From an uncultured Candidatus Saccharibacteria bacterium (lineage in GTDB: Bacteria > Patescibacteriota > Doudnabacteria > UBA920), in NCBI GenBank assembly GCA_964504715.1, contig CAZDEP010000006.1, forward strand, positions 4,748 through 68,747: 64,000 nucleotides of DNA. The letters run 5' to 3'. Of this stretch, positions 2,414 to 60,740 are shown one piece after another (position 1 is the stretch's first letter; each line of letters begins with the position of its first letter). The position numbers and the translations under genes were made by a program. The notes beneath the pieces are model-generated. The model had not been told where the DNA came from, ran no database searches, and saw only the letters and a list, made by a program, of their open reading frames with translations.

Positions 2414-4201
2414 ATGAAAATAACAGCGCAAGAGCTTAGGGAAAAATTTCTTAATTTCTTTAAGTCAAAAAAACACGCCATCATCCCTTCGGCTTCTTTA
2501 GTGCCTTCAGGAGACGCTTCGGTTTTGTTTACTACTGCTGGCATGCATCCGCTGGTGCCGTTTTTGCTTGGCCAGGAGCATCCGGCAGGGAAACGCGTAG
2601 CCAACGTCCAAAAGTGCATAAGAACAGGCGATATAGACGAAGTGGGGGACGCAACCCATCTGACTTTTTTTGAAATGATGGGCAATTGGAGCTTTGGCGA
2701 TTATTTTAAAAAAGAAGCGATTGAGTGGAGCTTTGAATTCTTGACCTCCCCTGAGTATTTAGGTTTGCCTTTGGAGCGTCTCGCTATAACCTGTTTTGCG
2801 GGCGACGAAGATGCGCCAAGGGACGAAGAATCATCCGCAATCTGGAAAGCTTTGGGTGTGCCGGAACACCGAATTAGCTTTTTGCCGAAGGAAAAAAATT
2901 GGTGGATAGCCGGCGGCAGCGGACCATGCGGCCCTGACACCGAAATGCATTACTGGATAGACGATTCCACGCCTGCGCCCAAGGAATACGACGTTAACGA
3001 ATCGCGCTGGGTGGAAATTTGGAACGATGTCTTCATGCAGTATGAAAAAAAACCCACCGGCGAATTGGTGCCGTTAAAGCAGCAAAATGTGGATACGGGC
3101 ATGGGCTTAGACAGGGTTTTGGCCGTGTTGAACGGCCAGACTTCGGTTTACGATACTGACTTGTTTAAGCCAATGTGGGAGGTAATAGGTTTGGGCAATG
3201 AAATACTGTCAAACGACGAAATAAAAAAAGCCCGGATTATTTTGGACCATATCCGCGCCGCTGTGTTTATTGTAGGGGACGGCATTGAGCCTTCCAACAA
3301 GGACCGCGGCTATGTTTTAAGACGGCTTTTAAGGCGCGCTATGGTTATGGCCAGGCTTTTGAATTTGCAGTCAACCTGGCTTAAGGCATTGGTGGGGCAG
3401 GTGATATTTACCTATTCATCGCCATATACAGAGCTACGCGATAACAATGAAAAGATTTTCAATGTAATTGAAAATGAGTATGGTAAGTTTAATACAACAC
3501 TGGAAAAAGGTTTGAAGGAGTTTGCCAGGATAAGTAAGCAGTACGCAGAGGACAGCAAGCAGTTGAATGGTAAAGATGCGTTTGATTTGTATCAAACTTA
3601 CGGTTTCCCGTGGGAATTGACCAAAGAATTGGCTGAGGCTGCGGGGCAAAAAATTGACAAGGCCCAGTTTGAAGAAGAATTTAAAAAGCACCAGGACTTG
3701 TCCAGGACAGCCAGCGCCGGGCAGTTTAAAGGCGGTTTGGCCTCTCATAGTGAAAAGATTGTCAGACTCCATACTGCCACGCATTTAATGAACGCGGCCT
3801 TAAGGCAGGTGCTGGGGGAAAATATTTGGCAAAAGGGGAGTAACATTACCGAAGAGAGGACTCGTTTTGATTTTACCCACGACAAAAAAATGACGTCTGA
3901 GGAAGTTGCGGCCGTGGAAGCTTTGGTTAACGATTGGGTGGCAAGGGACTTAAAAGTCAAACGGGAAATGATGCCCCAGGAGGCCGCGCGAGAGCTTGGA
4001 GCCATCGGCGTGTTTGGTGAAAAATACTCAGACACCGTTTCTATTTATACCGTTTTTGACGAAAAAACCGGGGAAGTCATCTCCCGCGAGTTTTGCGGCG
4101 GCCCTCACGTAGAACATACCGGCGTAATCGGCCAGTTTAAAATCCAAAAGGAAGAGGCTTCTTCCGCAGGCATTAGAAGAATTAAAGCAACAATTATATA
4201 A
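2414..4201 (+). CDS. alaS: Alanine--tRNA ligase, short form lacking the C-terminal C-Ala domain
   Basis: Class II AlaRS catalytic core (FTTAGMHPLVPF, FFEMMGNWSFGDYFK) and editing-domain HxxxH (HTATHLMNAA ... CGGPHVEHTG). The protein is about 596 aa versus about 870 aa for typical AlaRS. ATG at 2414 inside track ORF 2378..4201. Confidence 0.85.
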   Translation: MKITAQELREKFLNFFKSKKHAIIPSASLVPSGDASVLFTTAGMHPLVPFLLGQEHPAGKRVANVQKCIRTGDIDEVGDATHLTFFEMMGNWSFGDYFKKEAIEWSFEFLTSPEYLGLPLERLAITCFAGDEDAPRDEESSAIWKALGVPEHRISFLPKEKNWWIAGGSGPCGPDTEMHYWIDDSTPAPKEYDVNESRWVEIWNDVFMQYEKKPTGELVPLKQQNVDTGMGLDRVLAVLNGQTSVYDTDLFKPMWEVIGLGNEILSNDEIKKARIILDHIRAAVFIVGDGIEPSNKDRGYVLRRLLRRAMVMARLLNLQSTWLKALVGQVIFTYSSPYTELRDNNEKIFNVIENEYGKFNTTLEKGLKEFARISKQYAEDSKQLNGKDAFDLYQTYGFPWELTKELAEAAGQKIDKAQFEEEFKKHQDLSRTASAGQFKGGLASHSEKIVRLHTATHLMNAALRQVLGENIWQKGSNITEERTRFDFTHDKKMTSEEVAAVEALVNDWVARDLKVKREMMPQEAARELGAIGVFGEKYSDTVSIYTVFDEKTGEVISREFCGGPHVEHTGVIGQFKIQKEEASSAGIRRIKATII

Positions 4202-13534: not shown

Positions 13535-13950
13535 GCTCTAAGCAAGCTCATAAGCCGAATTCTGTTTCTTCCGCCAAAGGCGGATCGCCGAAATTAAATA
13601 AATAATCTTGGCGAAATAATCATCTCTCTGCCCATTCGATTGCTCGGAAGGGTCAAGCAGCCTACCAAATTTGGCCTTGCACTCAAGTAAGGATTTAGCC
13701 GTTTCACCCGCGATATTTCTATCACGGCTCACCCTATGCCGTATATCTTCCTTTTCGGGAAAATTCGGGTATAGGGTGTCTTTAGCCTTTCGGCCAAAGA
13801 CGTTTCTGTTCGCACCTCGAGGATTACTCCAGACGGGCGTTACCCGCTACTAATTTTGAAAACTCTATAGAGGTTCTCAAAGGAGTGTTCGGACTTTCCT
13901 CCCAGCCCTTTGAATAGAGCTGGGCGATTATTCGACTTGCTTAGAGCCAG
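13535..13950 (-). ncRNA. rnpB: RNase P RNA (bacterial type A)
   Basis: The minus-strand read has a P1 pairing (gctctaagcaag ... cttgcttagagc) and a P3 hairpin. The universally conserved P4 strands are present: GGAGGAAAGTCCGAAC at the 5' end and ACAGAATTCGGCTTA at the 3' end. It also carries GGGTAACGCC, GTGCGAACAGAAAC, AGGGTGAAACGGC and TGCAAGGCCAAAT. Confidence 0.8.
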
Positions 13951-25695: not shown

Positions 25696-25771
25696 GGGGA
25701 CGTAGTTTAGTTGGTTAGAACGCCGGCCTAAAAAACCGGAAAGGCAGGTTCGAATCCTGTTGTCCCCGCCA
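25696..25771 (+). tRNA. tRNA, isotype unresolved (anticodon loop CUAAAAA; apparent anticodon AAA)
   Basis: Cloverleaf: acceptor GGGGACG pairs with TGTCCCC (one G-U pair), D-arm with GG, T-arm GCAGG-TTCGAAT-CCTGT, encoded CCA, short variable loop. The anticodon stem has a C-A mismatch and the loop is A-rich. Confidence 0.55.
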
Positions 25772-59008: not shown

Positions 59009-59416
59009 ATGATAAAGGGCGTTGGGCAAAAAGGATTTATTTTACCGGGAGTGGAAGGCCTAATTATGATAGGCGGGCTTATGGTTTCAGTAACCCTTCT
59101 TAGCTTAAATTCGGCCCGAATGAAGTCGCGAGATGCCAAACGGATGGCGGACACCAGGCAAATTGCTGCGGCTTTGGAATTGTATTATAACGACCGGCAA
59201 GCCTATCCCGGAAGTTTGAACGAACTCACCCCAAATTATATTGGCATTCTGCCCACTGCACCAAAGCCCCAGGATGGGACATGCACAGCCGAACAAAATG
59301 AGTATAAATACACAAATATGGGCAAAGAAAAATACGAATTCACTTTTTGTCTGGGCAACATAACTAGCGGGTATCAGGCCGGGCCTAGGACCCTAAGCGA
59401 AGCAGGCATAAAATAA
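59009..59416 (+). CDS. Type IV pilin/pseudopilin-like protein with a degenerate prepilin leader
   Basis: KGFILPGVEGLIMIGGLMVSV (G-F but no Glu5) then SRDAKRMADTRQIAAALELYYNDRQAYP and paired Cys; paralogous to the C-terminus of the upstream gene. Confidence 0.6.
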   Translation: MIKGVGQKGFILPGVEGLIMIGGLMVSVTLLSLNSARMKSRDAKRMADTRQIAAALELYYNDRQAYPGSLNELTPNYIGILPTAPKPQDGTCTAEQNEYKYTNMGKEKYEFTFCLGNITSGYQAGPRTLSEAGIK

Positions 59417-59479
59417 CCACTACATATTTTTAAAAACGGGACTGTTTTCTTTTGGAAATGGTTCCGTTCTTTTTATTTT

Positions 59480-59740
59480 ACGCCGGAGTAGCTATTCTAA
59501 GAGCCCCAGAGCAGCCCCGTGGACCTTGCAGGCGCAAGCGCGCTTGCCGCTTTCGTAGCGGCGTGTTTGACCCTAGACGCCTTAAGGTTCGCGTTTACTT
59601 TCGCGATGTTGTCCTTAAGGGGTTTTAACTTCGCTTATTATGCGCGCGCTACGACGGAAGTTCGAGCGGTGTAGCGTGGCCTAACAGCTGAGCAGTCCAT
59701 AAATGGGCACGCTACCTTTATTGCGGTGCTAGTTTTTGGT
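59480..59740. ncRNA. GC-rich, highly self-complementary intergenic region; candidate structured RNA of unknown family
   Basis: About 58% GC in an AT-rich genome. Dyads include gcaagcgcgcttgc, gccgc-tttcgta-gcggc, ccttaagg[tcgcg-tttacttt-cgcga]ccttaagg and cgctacgacgg-aagttcgag-cggtgtagcg. No ORF. Confidence 0.3.
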
Positions 59741-59751
59741 ATAATAGCCGT

Positions 59752-60552
59752 ATGAAAATCGGTATTTTTGATTCGGGGCTTGGGGGACTTACTGTTGCCA
59801 AAGCGCTATTTAAAAAACTTCCCAGTTACGACTACTTATACTTGGGAGACACAAAAAACCTGCCATACGGGCAAAAGACACCGGCTGAAATTTATCGCCT
59901 TACCCAAAGGGGCGTTAATTTTTTATTTCAAAACGGCTGTCAACTAATTATTATTGCCTGCAACACCGCTTCGGCTTTGGCCTTGCGCAAAATCCAGCAA
60001 AAATATTTGCCCAAACATTGGCCCAAAAAACGGGTGCTTGGAGTAATAATCCCCACGCTGGAAGAAGCCGACAAAAAGCACCGCGGCAAAACTTTGGGGG
60101 TAATTGGCACCACGGCAACCGTAAAGTCCCATATATATAAAAAAGAATTGAAAAAAATAGACAGCCGCGCCCGGATTTTTGAACTTGCCACTCCCGGGCT
60201 GGTGCCGCTAATAGAAAAAAATTCTTTACAAAAAGCCACAAAATTACTACAATTATACCTGCAGCAGCTTCAAAACAAGGGGATTGAGGCGCTGGTTTTG
60301 GCTTGCACTCATTACCCCATTTTAAAAGCGTCGGCCAAAAAATATGCGGGACCTAAAACCAGCGTTATCAGCCAGGACGAAATTATTCCGGGCAAACTTA
60401 CGGATTATTTAAAAAGGCATGCGGAAATATCCTCCCAGCTTTCCAAAAACGCGCGACGGGATTTCCTGGTCACTGCCAAAAGTAAAACTTTTAGTTCCGT
60501 AGCCAAGAGGCTGTTTGGCAGGAAAATTAATTTTAGGCTCGCGAAATACTAA
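59752..60552 (+). CDS. murI: Glutamate racemase
   Basis: KIGIFDSGLGGLTV and IIACNTAS; TGGTATAAT extended -10 directly upstream. Confidence 0.9.
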   Translation: MKIGIFDSGLGGLTVAKALFKKLPSYDYLYLGDTKNLPYGQKTPAEIYRLTQRGVNFLFQNGCQLIIIACNTASALALRKIQQKYLPKHWPKKRVLGVIIPTLEEADKKHRGKTLGVIGTTATVKSHIYKKELKKIDSRARIFELATPGLVPLIEKNSLQKATKLLQLYLQQLQNKGIEALVLACTHYPILKASAKKYAGPKTSVISQDEIIPGKLTDYLKRHAEISSQLSKNARRDFLVTAKSKTFSSVAKRLFGRKINFRLAKY

Positions 60553-60664: not shown

Positions 60665-60740
60665 GCCGGCTTAGCTCATCTGGTAGAGCAGCGGTATCGT
60701 AAACCGCAGGTGGTCGGTTCAAGTCCGACAGCCGGCTCCA
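60665..60740 (+). tRNA. tRNA-Thr (anticodon CGT)
   Basis: Acceptor GCCGGCT/AGCCGGC, D-arm GCTC-ATCTGGTA-GAGC, anticodon stem GCGGT/ACCGC with loop ATCGTAA, T-arm GTCGG-TTCAAGT-CCGAC, encoded CCA. Confidence 0.9.

What the first reader, a model, noticed from the sequence alone, without database searches (positions are those of the whole stretch)
59480..59740. About 260-bp GC-rich, densely base-paired ORF-less element between the pilin gene and murI
Local GC is about 58%, against low-to-mid 40s for the rest of the window. The segment is packed with perfect dyads:
- gcaagcgcgcttgc
- gccgc-tttcgta-gcggc
- ccttaagg enclosing tcgcg-tttacttt-cgcga, then ccttaagg again
- a 10-bp stem cgctacgacgg / cggtgtagcg around aagttcgag

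The murI promoter (TGGTATAAT at 59735) lies at its 3' edge, so the element is not the murI 5' UTR. I could not match it to tmRNA: no GGGG start, and a tRNA-like end is missing. It does not match SRP RNA or the common riboswitch cores from memory. It may be an unclassified structured sRNA, a degenerate imported fragment, or a long 3'-UTR structure of the pilin gene.
Basis: seen in the sequence. Interest (0 to 1): 0.5.

Follow-up and report, generated by a model that had tools for sequence, protein, structure and literature searches.

The report
Decayed small gene plus REP relic
The GC-rich hairpin-filled spacer before murI is not a new structured RNA but the wreck of a small membrane-protein gene that is intact in sister genomes, followed by that gene's terminator hairpin, a worn-out REP-type palindromic repeat and the murI promoter.

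Summary
The sequence features are real: 54.8% GC against 44.2% for the window, and all four listed dyads are present. As a whole, though, the segment folds no better than shuffled sequence (z -0.4 on both strands) and matches no Rfam family.

The two closest sister lineages (MurI 77-80% identical) carry an intact 73-codon gene between the pilin-like gene and murI. It has a promoter, a Shine-Dalgarno site, two hydrophobic helices and dN/dS of 0.22.

The window keeps only part of that cassette:
- Codons 37-56 (59504-59563). About 200 nt are lost, covering the promoter, ribosome-binding site, start codon and 5' half. A 47-nt frameshifting deletion follows.
- The gene's terminator hairpin (59578-59627).
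- A degenerate REP/REPIN-type doublet (59670-59715).
- The murI -10 box, 6 nt before the ATG, so murI is probably leaderless.

More distant relatives (~70% identical and below) have only an 11-115 nt spacer here.

The REP family is dispersed in other Doudnabacteria-type contigs. There, REP units flank a 137-aa RAYT-like transposase.

One point remains open. The non-coding block 59558-59750 is 88-93% identical across lineages whose third codon positions are 52-69% identical. Some function is therefore likely, such as termination, insulation or promoter control. Overall this is an ordinary finding of low to moderate interest.

The parts
59435..59475 (+). Intrinsic terminator of the pilin-like gene (15-bp stem, then CTTTTTATTT). 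It forms the left boundary of the element and shows that the element is not the pilin 3' UTR.
   Evidence: terminator scan. (-18.3 kcal/mol, z -5.96). The start of the hairpin is homologous to the L083 pilin terminator.
59476..59503 (.). Junction that cannot be aligned to relatives. It stands where about 200 nt were lost: the small gene's promoter, Shine-Dalgarno site, ATG and codons 1 to about 31-36. In-frame stop codons lie at 59489-91 and 59498-500.
   Evidence: Alignment A1, local alignment, six-frame translation.
59504..59563 (+). Remnant of codons 37-56 of a 73-codon small membrane-protein gene. The window reads PQSSPVDLAGASALAAFVAA, against PKNEPVDLAGASALAAFGAA in L083. It contains dyads 1 and 2 of the finding. 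A 47-nt frameshifting deletion at 59562/59563, at a CGGC microhomology, removes codons 57 to about 71.
   Evidence: nhmmer of the remnant against L083 and L084: E 1.6e-7 and 3.1e-6.
59562..59570 (+). The last two codons and stop codon of the ancestral gene (CGT GTT TGA). They are now out of frame with the remnant.
   Evidence: Alignment A1, sequence.
59578..59627 (+). Terminator hairpin of the small gene. The outer stem is CGCCTTAAGG / CCTTAAGGGG, the inner hairpin is TCGCG-N8-CGCGA, and TTTTA follows. This is dyad 3 of the finding.
   Evidence: 97-100% identical to L083 and L084. Fold -21.1 kcal/mol, z -3.6. In L083 and L084 it lies 9-11 nt after the ORF stop codon.
59628..59669 (+). Spacer that carries 26-nt and 3-nt deletions relative to L083 and L084. 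It contains a probable old half-REP end, ATGCGCGCGCTAC (59640-59652), which matches the REP right end ATGGGCGCGCTAC at 12 of 13 positions. Its CGCTAC pairs with the GTAGCG of the next REP unit, which produces dyad 4 of the finding.
   Evidence: Alignment A1. Direct repeat D1 and inverted repeat I6. REP consensus. That this is a half-REP is inference.
59670..59715 (.). Degenerate REP/REPIN-type inverted doublet. The left unit, GTAGCGTG, is truncated by an 11-nt deletion. The right unit (minus strand), GTAGCGTGCCCATTTATGGAC, has one stem mismatch.
   Evidence: nhmmer with a profile built from 20 distinct doublet sequences (35 occurrences) gives 21.9 bits here, against about 58 bits for canonical copies. 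Supporting alignments. Fold z -1.36, against -4.67 for a canonical copy.
59717..59754 (+). murI promoter and start codon: weak -35-like TTTATT (59717-22), extended -10 TGgTATAAT (59737-45), ATG at 59752. The 6-nt gap between the -10 box and the ATG implies a leaderless mRNA.
   Evidence: Sequence. TATAAT or TATAGT lies 6-7 nt before the ATG in L004, L007, L009, L012, L015, L016, L017, L025, L144 and L149. This stretch is 92% identical to L083 and L084. That the mRNA is leaderless is inference.

Best explanation
The 260-bp segment is a composite left by gene decay. It is not a dedicated RNA gene.

A common ancestor of this genome and two sister lineages carried a cassette of about 550 nt between the pilin-like gene and murI. 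The cassette comprised a promoter, a Shine-Dalgarno site, a 73-codon gene for a small two-helix membrane protein, a Rho-independent terminator hairpin and REP-type palindromic repeats. These abutted the promoter of murI, which is probably leaderless.

In the lineage of this window, four deletions disabled the cassette:
- About 200 nt were lost, removing the promoter, ribosome-binding site, start codon and first half of the gene.
- 47 nt were lost at a CGGC microhomology, removing the gene's 3' end and shifting the frame.
- 26 nt were lost after the terminator.
- 11 nt were lost inside the REP doublet.

What remains explains each feature of the finding:
- Ala/Gly-rich coding sequence accounts for the high GC and the first two dyads.
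- The terminator hairpin is the third dyad.
- The REP ends, whose GTAGCG and CGCTAC termini are mutually complementary, give the fourth dyad.
- The murI promoter lies at the 3' edge.

Inferred rather than shown: the retained terminator and REP hairpins probably still work at the DNA/RNA level as a second stop for read-through from the pilin-like gene. That would insulate the promoter-proximal murI start, and it would explain why this non-coding block stays about 90% identical between lineages.
For: **Homology to an intact gene**
- L083 and L084-L086 (MurI 80% and 77% identical) carry a called 73-aa gene between the 135-aa pilin-like gene and murI.
- Alignment A1 places window 59504-59563 on codons 37-56 and maps the four deletions.
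- nhmmer of the remnant against these loci gives E 1.6e-7 and 3.1e-6.

**The intact ORF is a real gene**
- It has a TTGACA-18-AATAAT promoter (11 of 12 positions) and an AAAGGAGG site upstream of the ATG.
- It has two hydrophobic segments.
- dN/dS is 0.22 with dS 0.55 between L083 and L084.

**The window copy is disabled**
- In-frame stop codons lie just upstream of the remnant, no Shine-Dalgarno site is present, and the frame is shifted.
- No promoter-like site lies in 59400-59735.

**Direction of change**
- Relatives with about 70% or lower MurI identity keep the pilin-to-murI gene order with only an 11-115 nt spacer and no trace of the cassette.
- The cassette was therefore gained in the subclade and then eroded in this lineage.

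**Terminator**
- The hairpin lies 9-11 nt after the stop codon and is followed by UUUUA.
- Its fold has z -3.6 in the window and -4.45 in L084.

**REP identity of the 3' part**
- A metagenome scan found 56 loci carrying the unit, mostly as 46-48-nt inverted doublets.
- Unit variants keep the inner palindrome through changes on both sides: GCCGAT/ATCGGC, GCCCAAT/ATTGGGC and GCCTAA/TTAGGC.
- REP units flank a 137-aa Y1_Tnp gene (PF01797, 28.4 and 26.5 bits against a cut-off of 23) in L126 and L139.
- That transposase has 371 homologues. JGI names some of them RayT, and NCBI labels some as transposase of Candidatus Doudnabacteria.

**No support for a known RNA**
-.
Against: - Only three independent versions of the locus exist, so the order of events rests on parsimony.
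- The non-coding block 59558-59750 is 88-93% identical between lineages. Third codon positions of the flanking genes are 52-69% identical, and other spacers 35-60%. This is more conservation than 'debris' predicts, so some part of it must be functional. I cannot say whether that function is termination, promoter control or an RNA.
- The closest relative by MurI (L087, 85%) has unrelated sequence in the 170 nt upstream of murI. The block is therefore dispensable in at least one near lineage, and the history of the locus is more complicated than one gain followed by one decay.
- No transcript data are available.
Confidence: 0.85

Rival explanations
1. The conserved non-coding block (about 59558-59750: terminator hairpin, spacer and REP doublet) is itself a functional element. 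It could be a 3'-UTR-derived or independently transcribed small RNA. It could also be a protein-bound regulatory region that controls the adjacent murI promoter. On this view the dead coding remnant upstream is incidental.
For: - The block is 88-93% identical among the window, L083 and L084. Between L083 and L084 the divergence is roughly 0.1 per site, against dS 0.55 in the adjacent ORF.
- Stems and loops of the CCTTAAGG hairpin are invariant, and CCTTAAGG is a self-complementary 8-mer repeated 33 nt apart.
- The REP doublet ends 1 nt before the -35 position of murI.
- L084 has a weak promoter-like site just after the terminator (TTAACG-16-TAAAAT).
Against: - No Rfam match.
- The alignment fold shows 1 compensatory pair among 56 predicted pairs and an unfavourable covariation term.
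- The promoter-like site of L084 lies inside the 26 nt that are deleted in the window.
- No promoter-like site lies in the window's block.
- The block is absent from the closest MurI relative, L087, and from all relatives at about 70% identity.
- Three sequences about 90% identical give almost no power either way.
Confidence: 0.12
2. The window encodes a shortened but functional small protein: either the 51-aa ORF from GTG 59519 or the 58-aa ORF from TTG 59452.
For: Both ORFs are open. The 51-aa ORF starts in the ancestral frame, with VDLAGASALAAF.
Against: - There is no Shine-Dalgarno site or promoter upstream.
- After codon 15 the 51-aa ORF reads a shifted frame through the terminator hairpin and the spacer up to the left edge of the REP doublet.
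- The 58-aa ORF is in a non-ancestral frame throughout.
- Neither has a Pfam match.
- The first transmembrane helix of the ancestral protein is gone.
Confidence: 0.02
3. The segment is a fragment imported from a high-GC donor or a mobile element.
For: GC is 10-14 points above the genome average. The cassette is confined to a small subclade, and the 73-aa protein is an orphan: 2 clusters among 5.8 billion proteins, and no credible hit among 1.84 billion representatives.
Against: - The high GC follows from the Ala/Gly/Trp/Arg-rich composition of the small protein. The intact ORF is 58-60% GC in loci that are 46% GC.
- No phage or plasmid similarity was found.
- No other copy is present in the 64-kb window or in 150 fetched loci.
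- The REP part belongs to a family native to Doudnabacteria-type genomes.
- The ultimate origin of the cassette remains unknown.
Confidence: 0.03

Closest known systems
Gene remnant (unitary pseudogene) of a lineage-restricted small membrane-protein gene
   Same: The remnant is homologous, in frame, to the middle of an ORF that is intact and under purifying selection at the same locus in sister genomes. It carries disabling lesions: 5' truncation, loss of the promoter, ribosome-binding site and start codon, and a frameshifting deletion.
   Different: The parent gene is an orphan with no Pfam or NCBIfam family, so its function is unknown. Its downstream non-coding region has not decayed.
REP / REPIN elements mobilised by RAYT (REP-associated tyrosine transposases; Bertels and Rainey, PMC3116915 and PMC3337134; Bertels et al. 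2017, PMC5581495)
   Same: - Units are about 22 nt, starting with GTAG followed by a short palindrome.
- They mostly occur as tail-to-tail inverted doublets that can form a long hairpin.
- They are dispersed, mostly outside ORFs, across many contigs.
- The inner palindrome is kept by changes on both sides.
- A single short Y1 transposase gene with an HVH motif is flanked by units.
   Different: - The family is found in Doudnabacteria/Patescibacteria-type contigs. The well-studied REPIN-associated RAYT groups are from Enterobacteria and Pseudomonas (PMC5581495).
- The RAYT is short, at 137 aa.
- The window itself holds one degenerate doublet in 64 kb and no RAYT, so here the element is a fossil, not an active population.
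Rho-independent (intrinsic) terminator
   Same: It is a GC-containing hairpin with a 10-bp outer stem, lying 9-11 nt after a stop codon and followed by a U-tract. Its fold is significantly stable.
   Different: The U-tract is short (UUUUA). The hairpin is branched or interrupted: an inner 5-bp hairpin plus a 6-nt asymmetric bulge. It is conserved in sequence, loops included, far more than a generic terminator needs to be.
Leaderless bacterial mRNAs
   Same: The -10 box TATAAT lies 6-7 nt before the murI ATG and there is no Shine-Dalgarno site. This holds in the window and in many relatives.
   Different: No transcription start site was mapped. This is inferred from spacing only.

Membership tests
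Gene remnant / pseudogene | Significant homology to an intact gene in relatives, at the orthologous position | tested here: met
   Alignment A1. nhmmer E 1.6e-7 and 3.1e-6. Same pilin-like to murI context.
Gene remnant / pseudogene | The intact counterpart is under coding constraint | tested here: met
   dN/dS 0.22 with dS 0.55 between L083 and L084. Promoter, Shine-Dalgarno site and two hydrophobic helices are present. Only one pairwise comparison is available.
Gene remnant / pseudogene | Disabling lesions in the copy under study | tested here: met
   The promoter, Shine-Dalgarno site, ATG and codons 1 to about 36 are lost. In-frame stop codons lie at 59489-91 and 59498-500. A 47-nt frameshifting deletion is present.
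REP / REPIN (RAYT-associated) | Unit with a 5' GTAG followed by a short imperfect palindrome | tested here: met
   Canonical units read GTAGCGYGCC-(C/G)A(A)TTTAT(T)(G/C)-GGCTGC. In the window, the minus-strand unit GTAGCGTGCCCATTTATGGAC is met with one mismatch, and the plus-strand unit is truncated. That GTAG is a REP hallmark comes from my own knowledge (Ton-Hoang 2012, Messing 2012) and was not read here.
REP / REPIN (RAYT-associated) | Two units in inverted orientation forming a hairpin (REPIN) | tested here: met
   45 doublets of 46-88 nt in the scan loci. A canonical copy folds at -26.6 kcal/mol, z -4.67. The window copy folds at -18 kcal/mol, z -1.36. Definition from PMC3337134.
REP / REPIN (RAYT-associated) | Many dispersed extragenic copies within one genome | tested here: inconclusive
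   Related contigs carry up to 8 profile hits (4 full doublets) in 14 kb (L126) and several loci on one 80-kb contig. 47 of 57 doublets lie outside crude ORFs. The window has a single weak copy in 64 kb. No whole genome could be scanned, and the loci were selected for carrying a copy.
REP / REPIN (RAYT-associated) | A cognate RAYT (Y1 HUH transposase) gene flanked by the same REP units | tested here: met
   This is met for the family. L126 4781-5194 and L139 515-928 match PF01797 above the cut-off, carry an HVH motif, and have units on both sides. It is not met in the window: tblastn with the Doudnabacteria-type RAYT from L126 finds nothing in the 64 kb.
REP / REPIN (RAYT-associated) | RAYT cleaves or mobilises the REP | not testable with these tools
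   This needs a biochemical or genetic assay.
Known structured RNA families (tmRNA, SRP, 6S, riboswitches, any of the 4227 Rfam models) | Covariance-model match at or near the gathering score | tested here: not met
   Nothing in 59300-59900 other than two chance-level hits (L20_leader 17.7 of 58.7 bits; VIS1 16 of 100 bits). None at the gathering threshold. ARAGORN finds no tmRNA.
Novel structured sRNA | Conservation with compensatory base-pair changes, its own promoter and terminator, and folding beyond composition | tested here: not met
   z -0.4 on both strands. No internal promoter-like site. 1 compensatory pair among 56, with a positive covariation term. Absent outside three lineages. Power is low with only three sequences.
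Intrinsic terminator | Stable GC-rich hairpin directly followed by a U-tract, downstream of a stop codon | tested here: met
   The consensus scan tool flagged only the inner hairpin. The U-tract is only 4 nt long. Termination itself was not tested.

The most novel reading that the evidence does not exclude
Two readings remain open.

First, the 3' two-thirds of the element (59558-59750) may not be debris. It may be a REP-derived hairpin module that selection keeps next to the leaderless murI promoter, as a terminator, insulator or operator.

Second, the REP part may be a fossil of a REPIN-RAYT system that is alive in sister Doudnabacteria. That would mean that ultra-small CPR (Candidate Phyla Radiation) genomes maintain, and in some lineages lose, such intragenomic replicators.
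Probability: 0.25. Interest if true: 0.45.

Novelty: new member of a known kind. Interest (0 to 1): 0.25.

Why it matters
For genome annotation, this is a caution. A GC-rich intergenic stretch full of hairpins in a CPR (Candidate Phyla Radiation) genome can be produced entirely by decay of an Ala/Gly-rich small gene plus terminator and REP hairpins. Comparing the closest sister genomes settles the question quickly.

Two by-products have some value:
- Doudnabacteria-type genomes carry a clear REP/REPIN family with a flanked RAYT gene. This would extend that host-replicator system to ultra-small CPR genomes.
- murI and its relatives appear to be leaderless. A block of about 190 nt next to the promoter evolves several times more slowly than synonymous sites, which makes it a concrete target for transcript mapping.

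Tried and rejected
- **Known RNA families.** Rfam over the whole window at gathering thresholds, and over 59300-59900 at E <= 10, gave only chance-level hits. ARAGORN found no tmRNA. By eye I compared the segment with the SRP domain IV motif and with a tmRNA tag frame on both strands. Neither fitted.
- **Global structure.** Folding z-scores are -0.40 and -0.37. The RNAalifold consensus of the three versions shows no covariation support.
- **Repeat within the window.** blastn and nhmmer of the element against the 64 kb found no second copy.
- **Conservation at the same locus in GTDB species representatives.** 80 murI loci were fetched. None has the element, and only short REP-like matches were seen in L007, L009 and L011.
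- **Wider family for the 73-aa protein.** Pfam and NCBIfam gave nothing. The word-indexed search found 2 clusters. The exhaustive profile search found only the family itself, low-complexity hits in long repetitive proteins, and one borderline 64-aa two-helix protein (P0246, E 3.7e-4) next to uvrC in an unrelated context. I did not rely on that hit.
- **Mobile or imported origin.** No match for the L084 cassette in the phage or plasmid collections, and no REP unit in viral contigs.
- **Pilin 3' UTR.** Rejected because the pilin-like gene has its own strong terminator before the element.
- **Type I toxin-antitoxin reading** (small hydrophobic protein plus antisense RNA). Considered, but no minus-strand promoter-like site lies in the block in the window or in L084. 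It remains untested speculation.

Full report
**1. The observation**

The segment lies between a 135-aa pilin-like ORF (59009-59416, +) and murI (59752-60552, +; Pfam Asp_Glu_race, E 3e-18).

GC is 54.8% for 59480-59740 and 57.5% for 59500-59699, against 44.2% for the window. That is the 98.8th percentile of 261-nt windows.

Taken as one molecule, however, the segment is not unusually structured:
- The minimum free energy is -93.8 kcal/mol against -91.8 +/- 4.9 for dinucleotide shuffles (z -0.40). The minus strand gives z -0.37.
- There are 11 perfect dyads against 6.5 +/- 2.4 expected.
- Only the CCTTAAGG hairpin stands out on its own (z -3.6).

The pilin-like gene has its own terminator at 59435-59468 followed by a T-run (z -5.96). 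The element therefore starts after the end of the pilin transcript.

TGGTATAAT is at 59737-59745, with the murI ATG at 59752.

The element is identical in contigs from two other sequencing runs (L001 and L002).

**2. Not a known RNA**

Rfam finds RNase P RNA and two tRNAs elsewhere in the window but nothing here, even at E <= 10. ARAGORN finds no tmRNA.

**3. What relatives show**

The window comes from a CPR (Candidate Phyla Radiation) bacterium of the Doudnabacteria type. The best murI matches among GTDB species representatives are 55-71% identical and carry such labels.

In these relatives, and in ones about 70% identical from other assemblies, the pilin-like gene is followed directly by murI. 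The spacer is only 11-115 nt and usually holds a small terminator and a TATAAT box. The 335-nt spacer of the window is therefore a lineage-specific addition.

The two nearest lineages with usable flanks are L083 (NCBI CAZDGW010000035.1, MurI 80%) and L084-L086 (ENA, 77%). Their spacers are even longer, 606 and 595 nt, and contain a called 73-aa gene.

That gene has:
- a TTGACA-18-AATAAT promoter;
- an AAAGGAGG site upstream of the ATG;
- two hydrophobic helices;
- dN/dS of 0.22 with dS 0.55 between the two lineages.

It is a real but orphan gene. It forms two clusters among 5.8 billion proteins, has no Pfam or NCBIfam family, and gives nothing credible in an exhaustive profile search.

**4. 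Anatomy of the window's element**

The three-way alignment (A1) and local alignments resolve the following parts.
- **59476-59503:** a junction that cannot be aligned. It replaces about 200 nt that held the promoter, Shine-Dalgarno site, ATG and first half of the gene.
- **59504-59563:** codons 37-56 in the ancestral frame. The window reads PQSSPVDLAGASALAAFVAA, against PKNEPVDLAGASALAAFGAA in L083.
  - The first dyad (GCAAGCGCGCTTGC) is Ala-Ser-Ala-Leu-Ala coding sequence. It is not palindromic in L083 or L084.
  - The second (GCCGC...GCGGC) encodes the conserved AAFGAA.
- **59562/59563:** a 47-nt deletion at a CGGC microhomology. It removes codons 57 to about 71 and shifts the frame.
- **59562-59570:** the ancestral CGT GTT TGA, which survives out of frame.
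- **59578-59627:** the gene's terminator hairpin with UUUUA, 97-100% identical in all three lineages. This is the third dyad.
- **After the terminator:** deletions of 26 nt and 3 nt.
- **59640-59652:** ATGCGCGCGCTAC resembles the right end of a REP unit at 12 of 13 positions (inference).
- **59670-59715:** a degenerate REP-type doublet with an 11-nt deletion in its left unit.
  - The fourth dyad is simply CGCTAC of the old REP end pairing with GTAGCG of the next unit.
- **59717-59745:** the murI promoter.

**5. The palindromic repeat**

Short matches of 59692-59718 in L007, L009 and L011 led to a unit, GTAGCGYGCC-(C/G)A(A)TTTAT(T)(G/C)-GGCTGC.

One scan of metagenome contigs found 56 loci, mostly from one sample series. 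The unit usually appears there as a 46-48-nt inverted doublet. An nhmmer profile of the doublets finds 90 copies in the fetched loci but only one weak copy in the window (21.9 bits, against about 58).

Unit variants keep the inner palindrome through changes on both sides. 47 of 57 doublets lie outside crude ORFs.

In L126 and L139, units flank a 137-aa ORF between purN and purD. This ORF matches Pfam Y1_Tnp above the cut-off and carries an HVH motif. Its 371 homologues include proteins that JGI names 'REP element-mobilizing transposase RayT' and NCBI labels 'transposase [Candidatus Doudnabacteria bacterium]'.

This matches the published definition of REPINs and RAYTs (PMC3337134 and PMC5581495). 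The window has no RAYT in its 64 kb.

**6. What stays unexplained**

The non-coding block 59558-59750 is 88-93% identical among the three lineages. In the flanking genes, third codon positions are 52-69% identical, and other spacers are 35-60% identical. The coding remnant is only 74-76% identical.

The block is therefore constrained. Its position suggests termination or insulation in front of a leaderless murI, or promoter control, but nothing here tests that.

Three sequences give no power for covariation analysis. The closest MurI relative, L087 (85%), has unrelated sequence upstream of murI.

**7. Verdict**

Its main idea, an unclassified structured sRNA, is not supported, and its own refutation criterion (a fragment of a protein-coding gene) is met.

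The element is a decayed small gene, followed by that gene's terminator, a REP relic and the murI promoter.

This is a new member of known kinds and of low to moderate interest. The REPIN-RAYT family in Doudnabacteria and the conserved promoter-proximal block are the parts worth following up.

Noticed in passing
L126 4740-5400; L139 440-960; 56 loci L088-L143; also L007 4797-4844 and L009 6869-6918, 8218-8277: A REP/REPIN-type family occurs in Doudnabacteria-type contigs: 46-48-nt inverted doublets of a GTAGCGYGCC...GGCTGC unit. Units flank a 137-aa RAYT-like Y1 transposase that sits between purN and purD. The transposase has 371 homologues, some named RayT by JGI. One full-text search (REP plus 'candidate phyla radiation') found no paper describing REP elements in CPR bacteria, and none of the 10 listed results of the REPIN/RAYT/Patescibacteria search held 'Patescibacteria'.
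   Followed up: partly
window 25696-25771 (+): ARAGORN calls this tRNA a tRNA-Phe with anticodon AAA, and Rfam scores it at 62 bits. The anticodon arm reads CCGGC-CUAAAAA-ACCGG, with a C31-A39 mismatch. Alternatively it is a 4-bp stem with a 9-nt loop. The CCA end is encoded. An A34 Phe tRNA is unusual in bacteria.
   Followed up: no
window 59737-59754; L004, L007, L009, L012, L015, L016, L017, L025, L144 and L149, just upstream of murI: TATAAT or TATAGT lies 6-7 nt before the murI ATG with no Shine-Dalgarno site, across many relatives. This suggests that murI is transcribed as a leaderless mRNA in this clade.
   Followed up: partly
L010 about 3810-3975; L087 1-135: Other lineages carry unrelated GC-rich palindromic inserts directly upstream of murI. 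L010 has CTGCCCGCATGAGCTTTGAA...TTCAAAGCTCATGCGGGCAG, and L087 has CCCTGCCTGCGGCAGGCAGG...CAGGCAGGG. The pilin-murI spacer looks like a recurrent landing site for hairpin elements.
   Followed up: no
L083 1671-2663: The deposited gene call for MurI in CAZDGW010000035.1 is 330 aa. It is extended 64 codons upstream, through part of the terminator hairpin, the spacer, the REP doublet and the promoter. The conserved start is at 1863. This looks like an annotation artefact.
   Followed up: partly
L083 1412-1633; L084 3556-3777: An orphan 73-aa two-helix membrane protein (MGKGEK...WPTRRV) has its own strong promoter and terminator. It is known from only two lineages. A borderline 64-aa look-alike (P0246) lies next to uvrC in an unrelated organism. 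Its function is unknown.
   Followed up: partly
window 13535-13943 (-) and 60665-60740 (+): RNase P RNA class A scores 108 bits, just above the gathering score of 100, and shows large insertions. tRNA-Thr(CGT) lies between murI and the atp operon.
   Followed up: no
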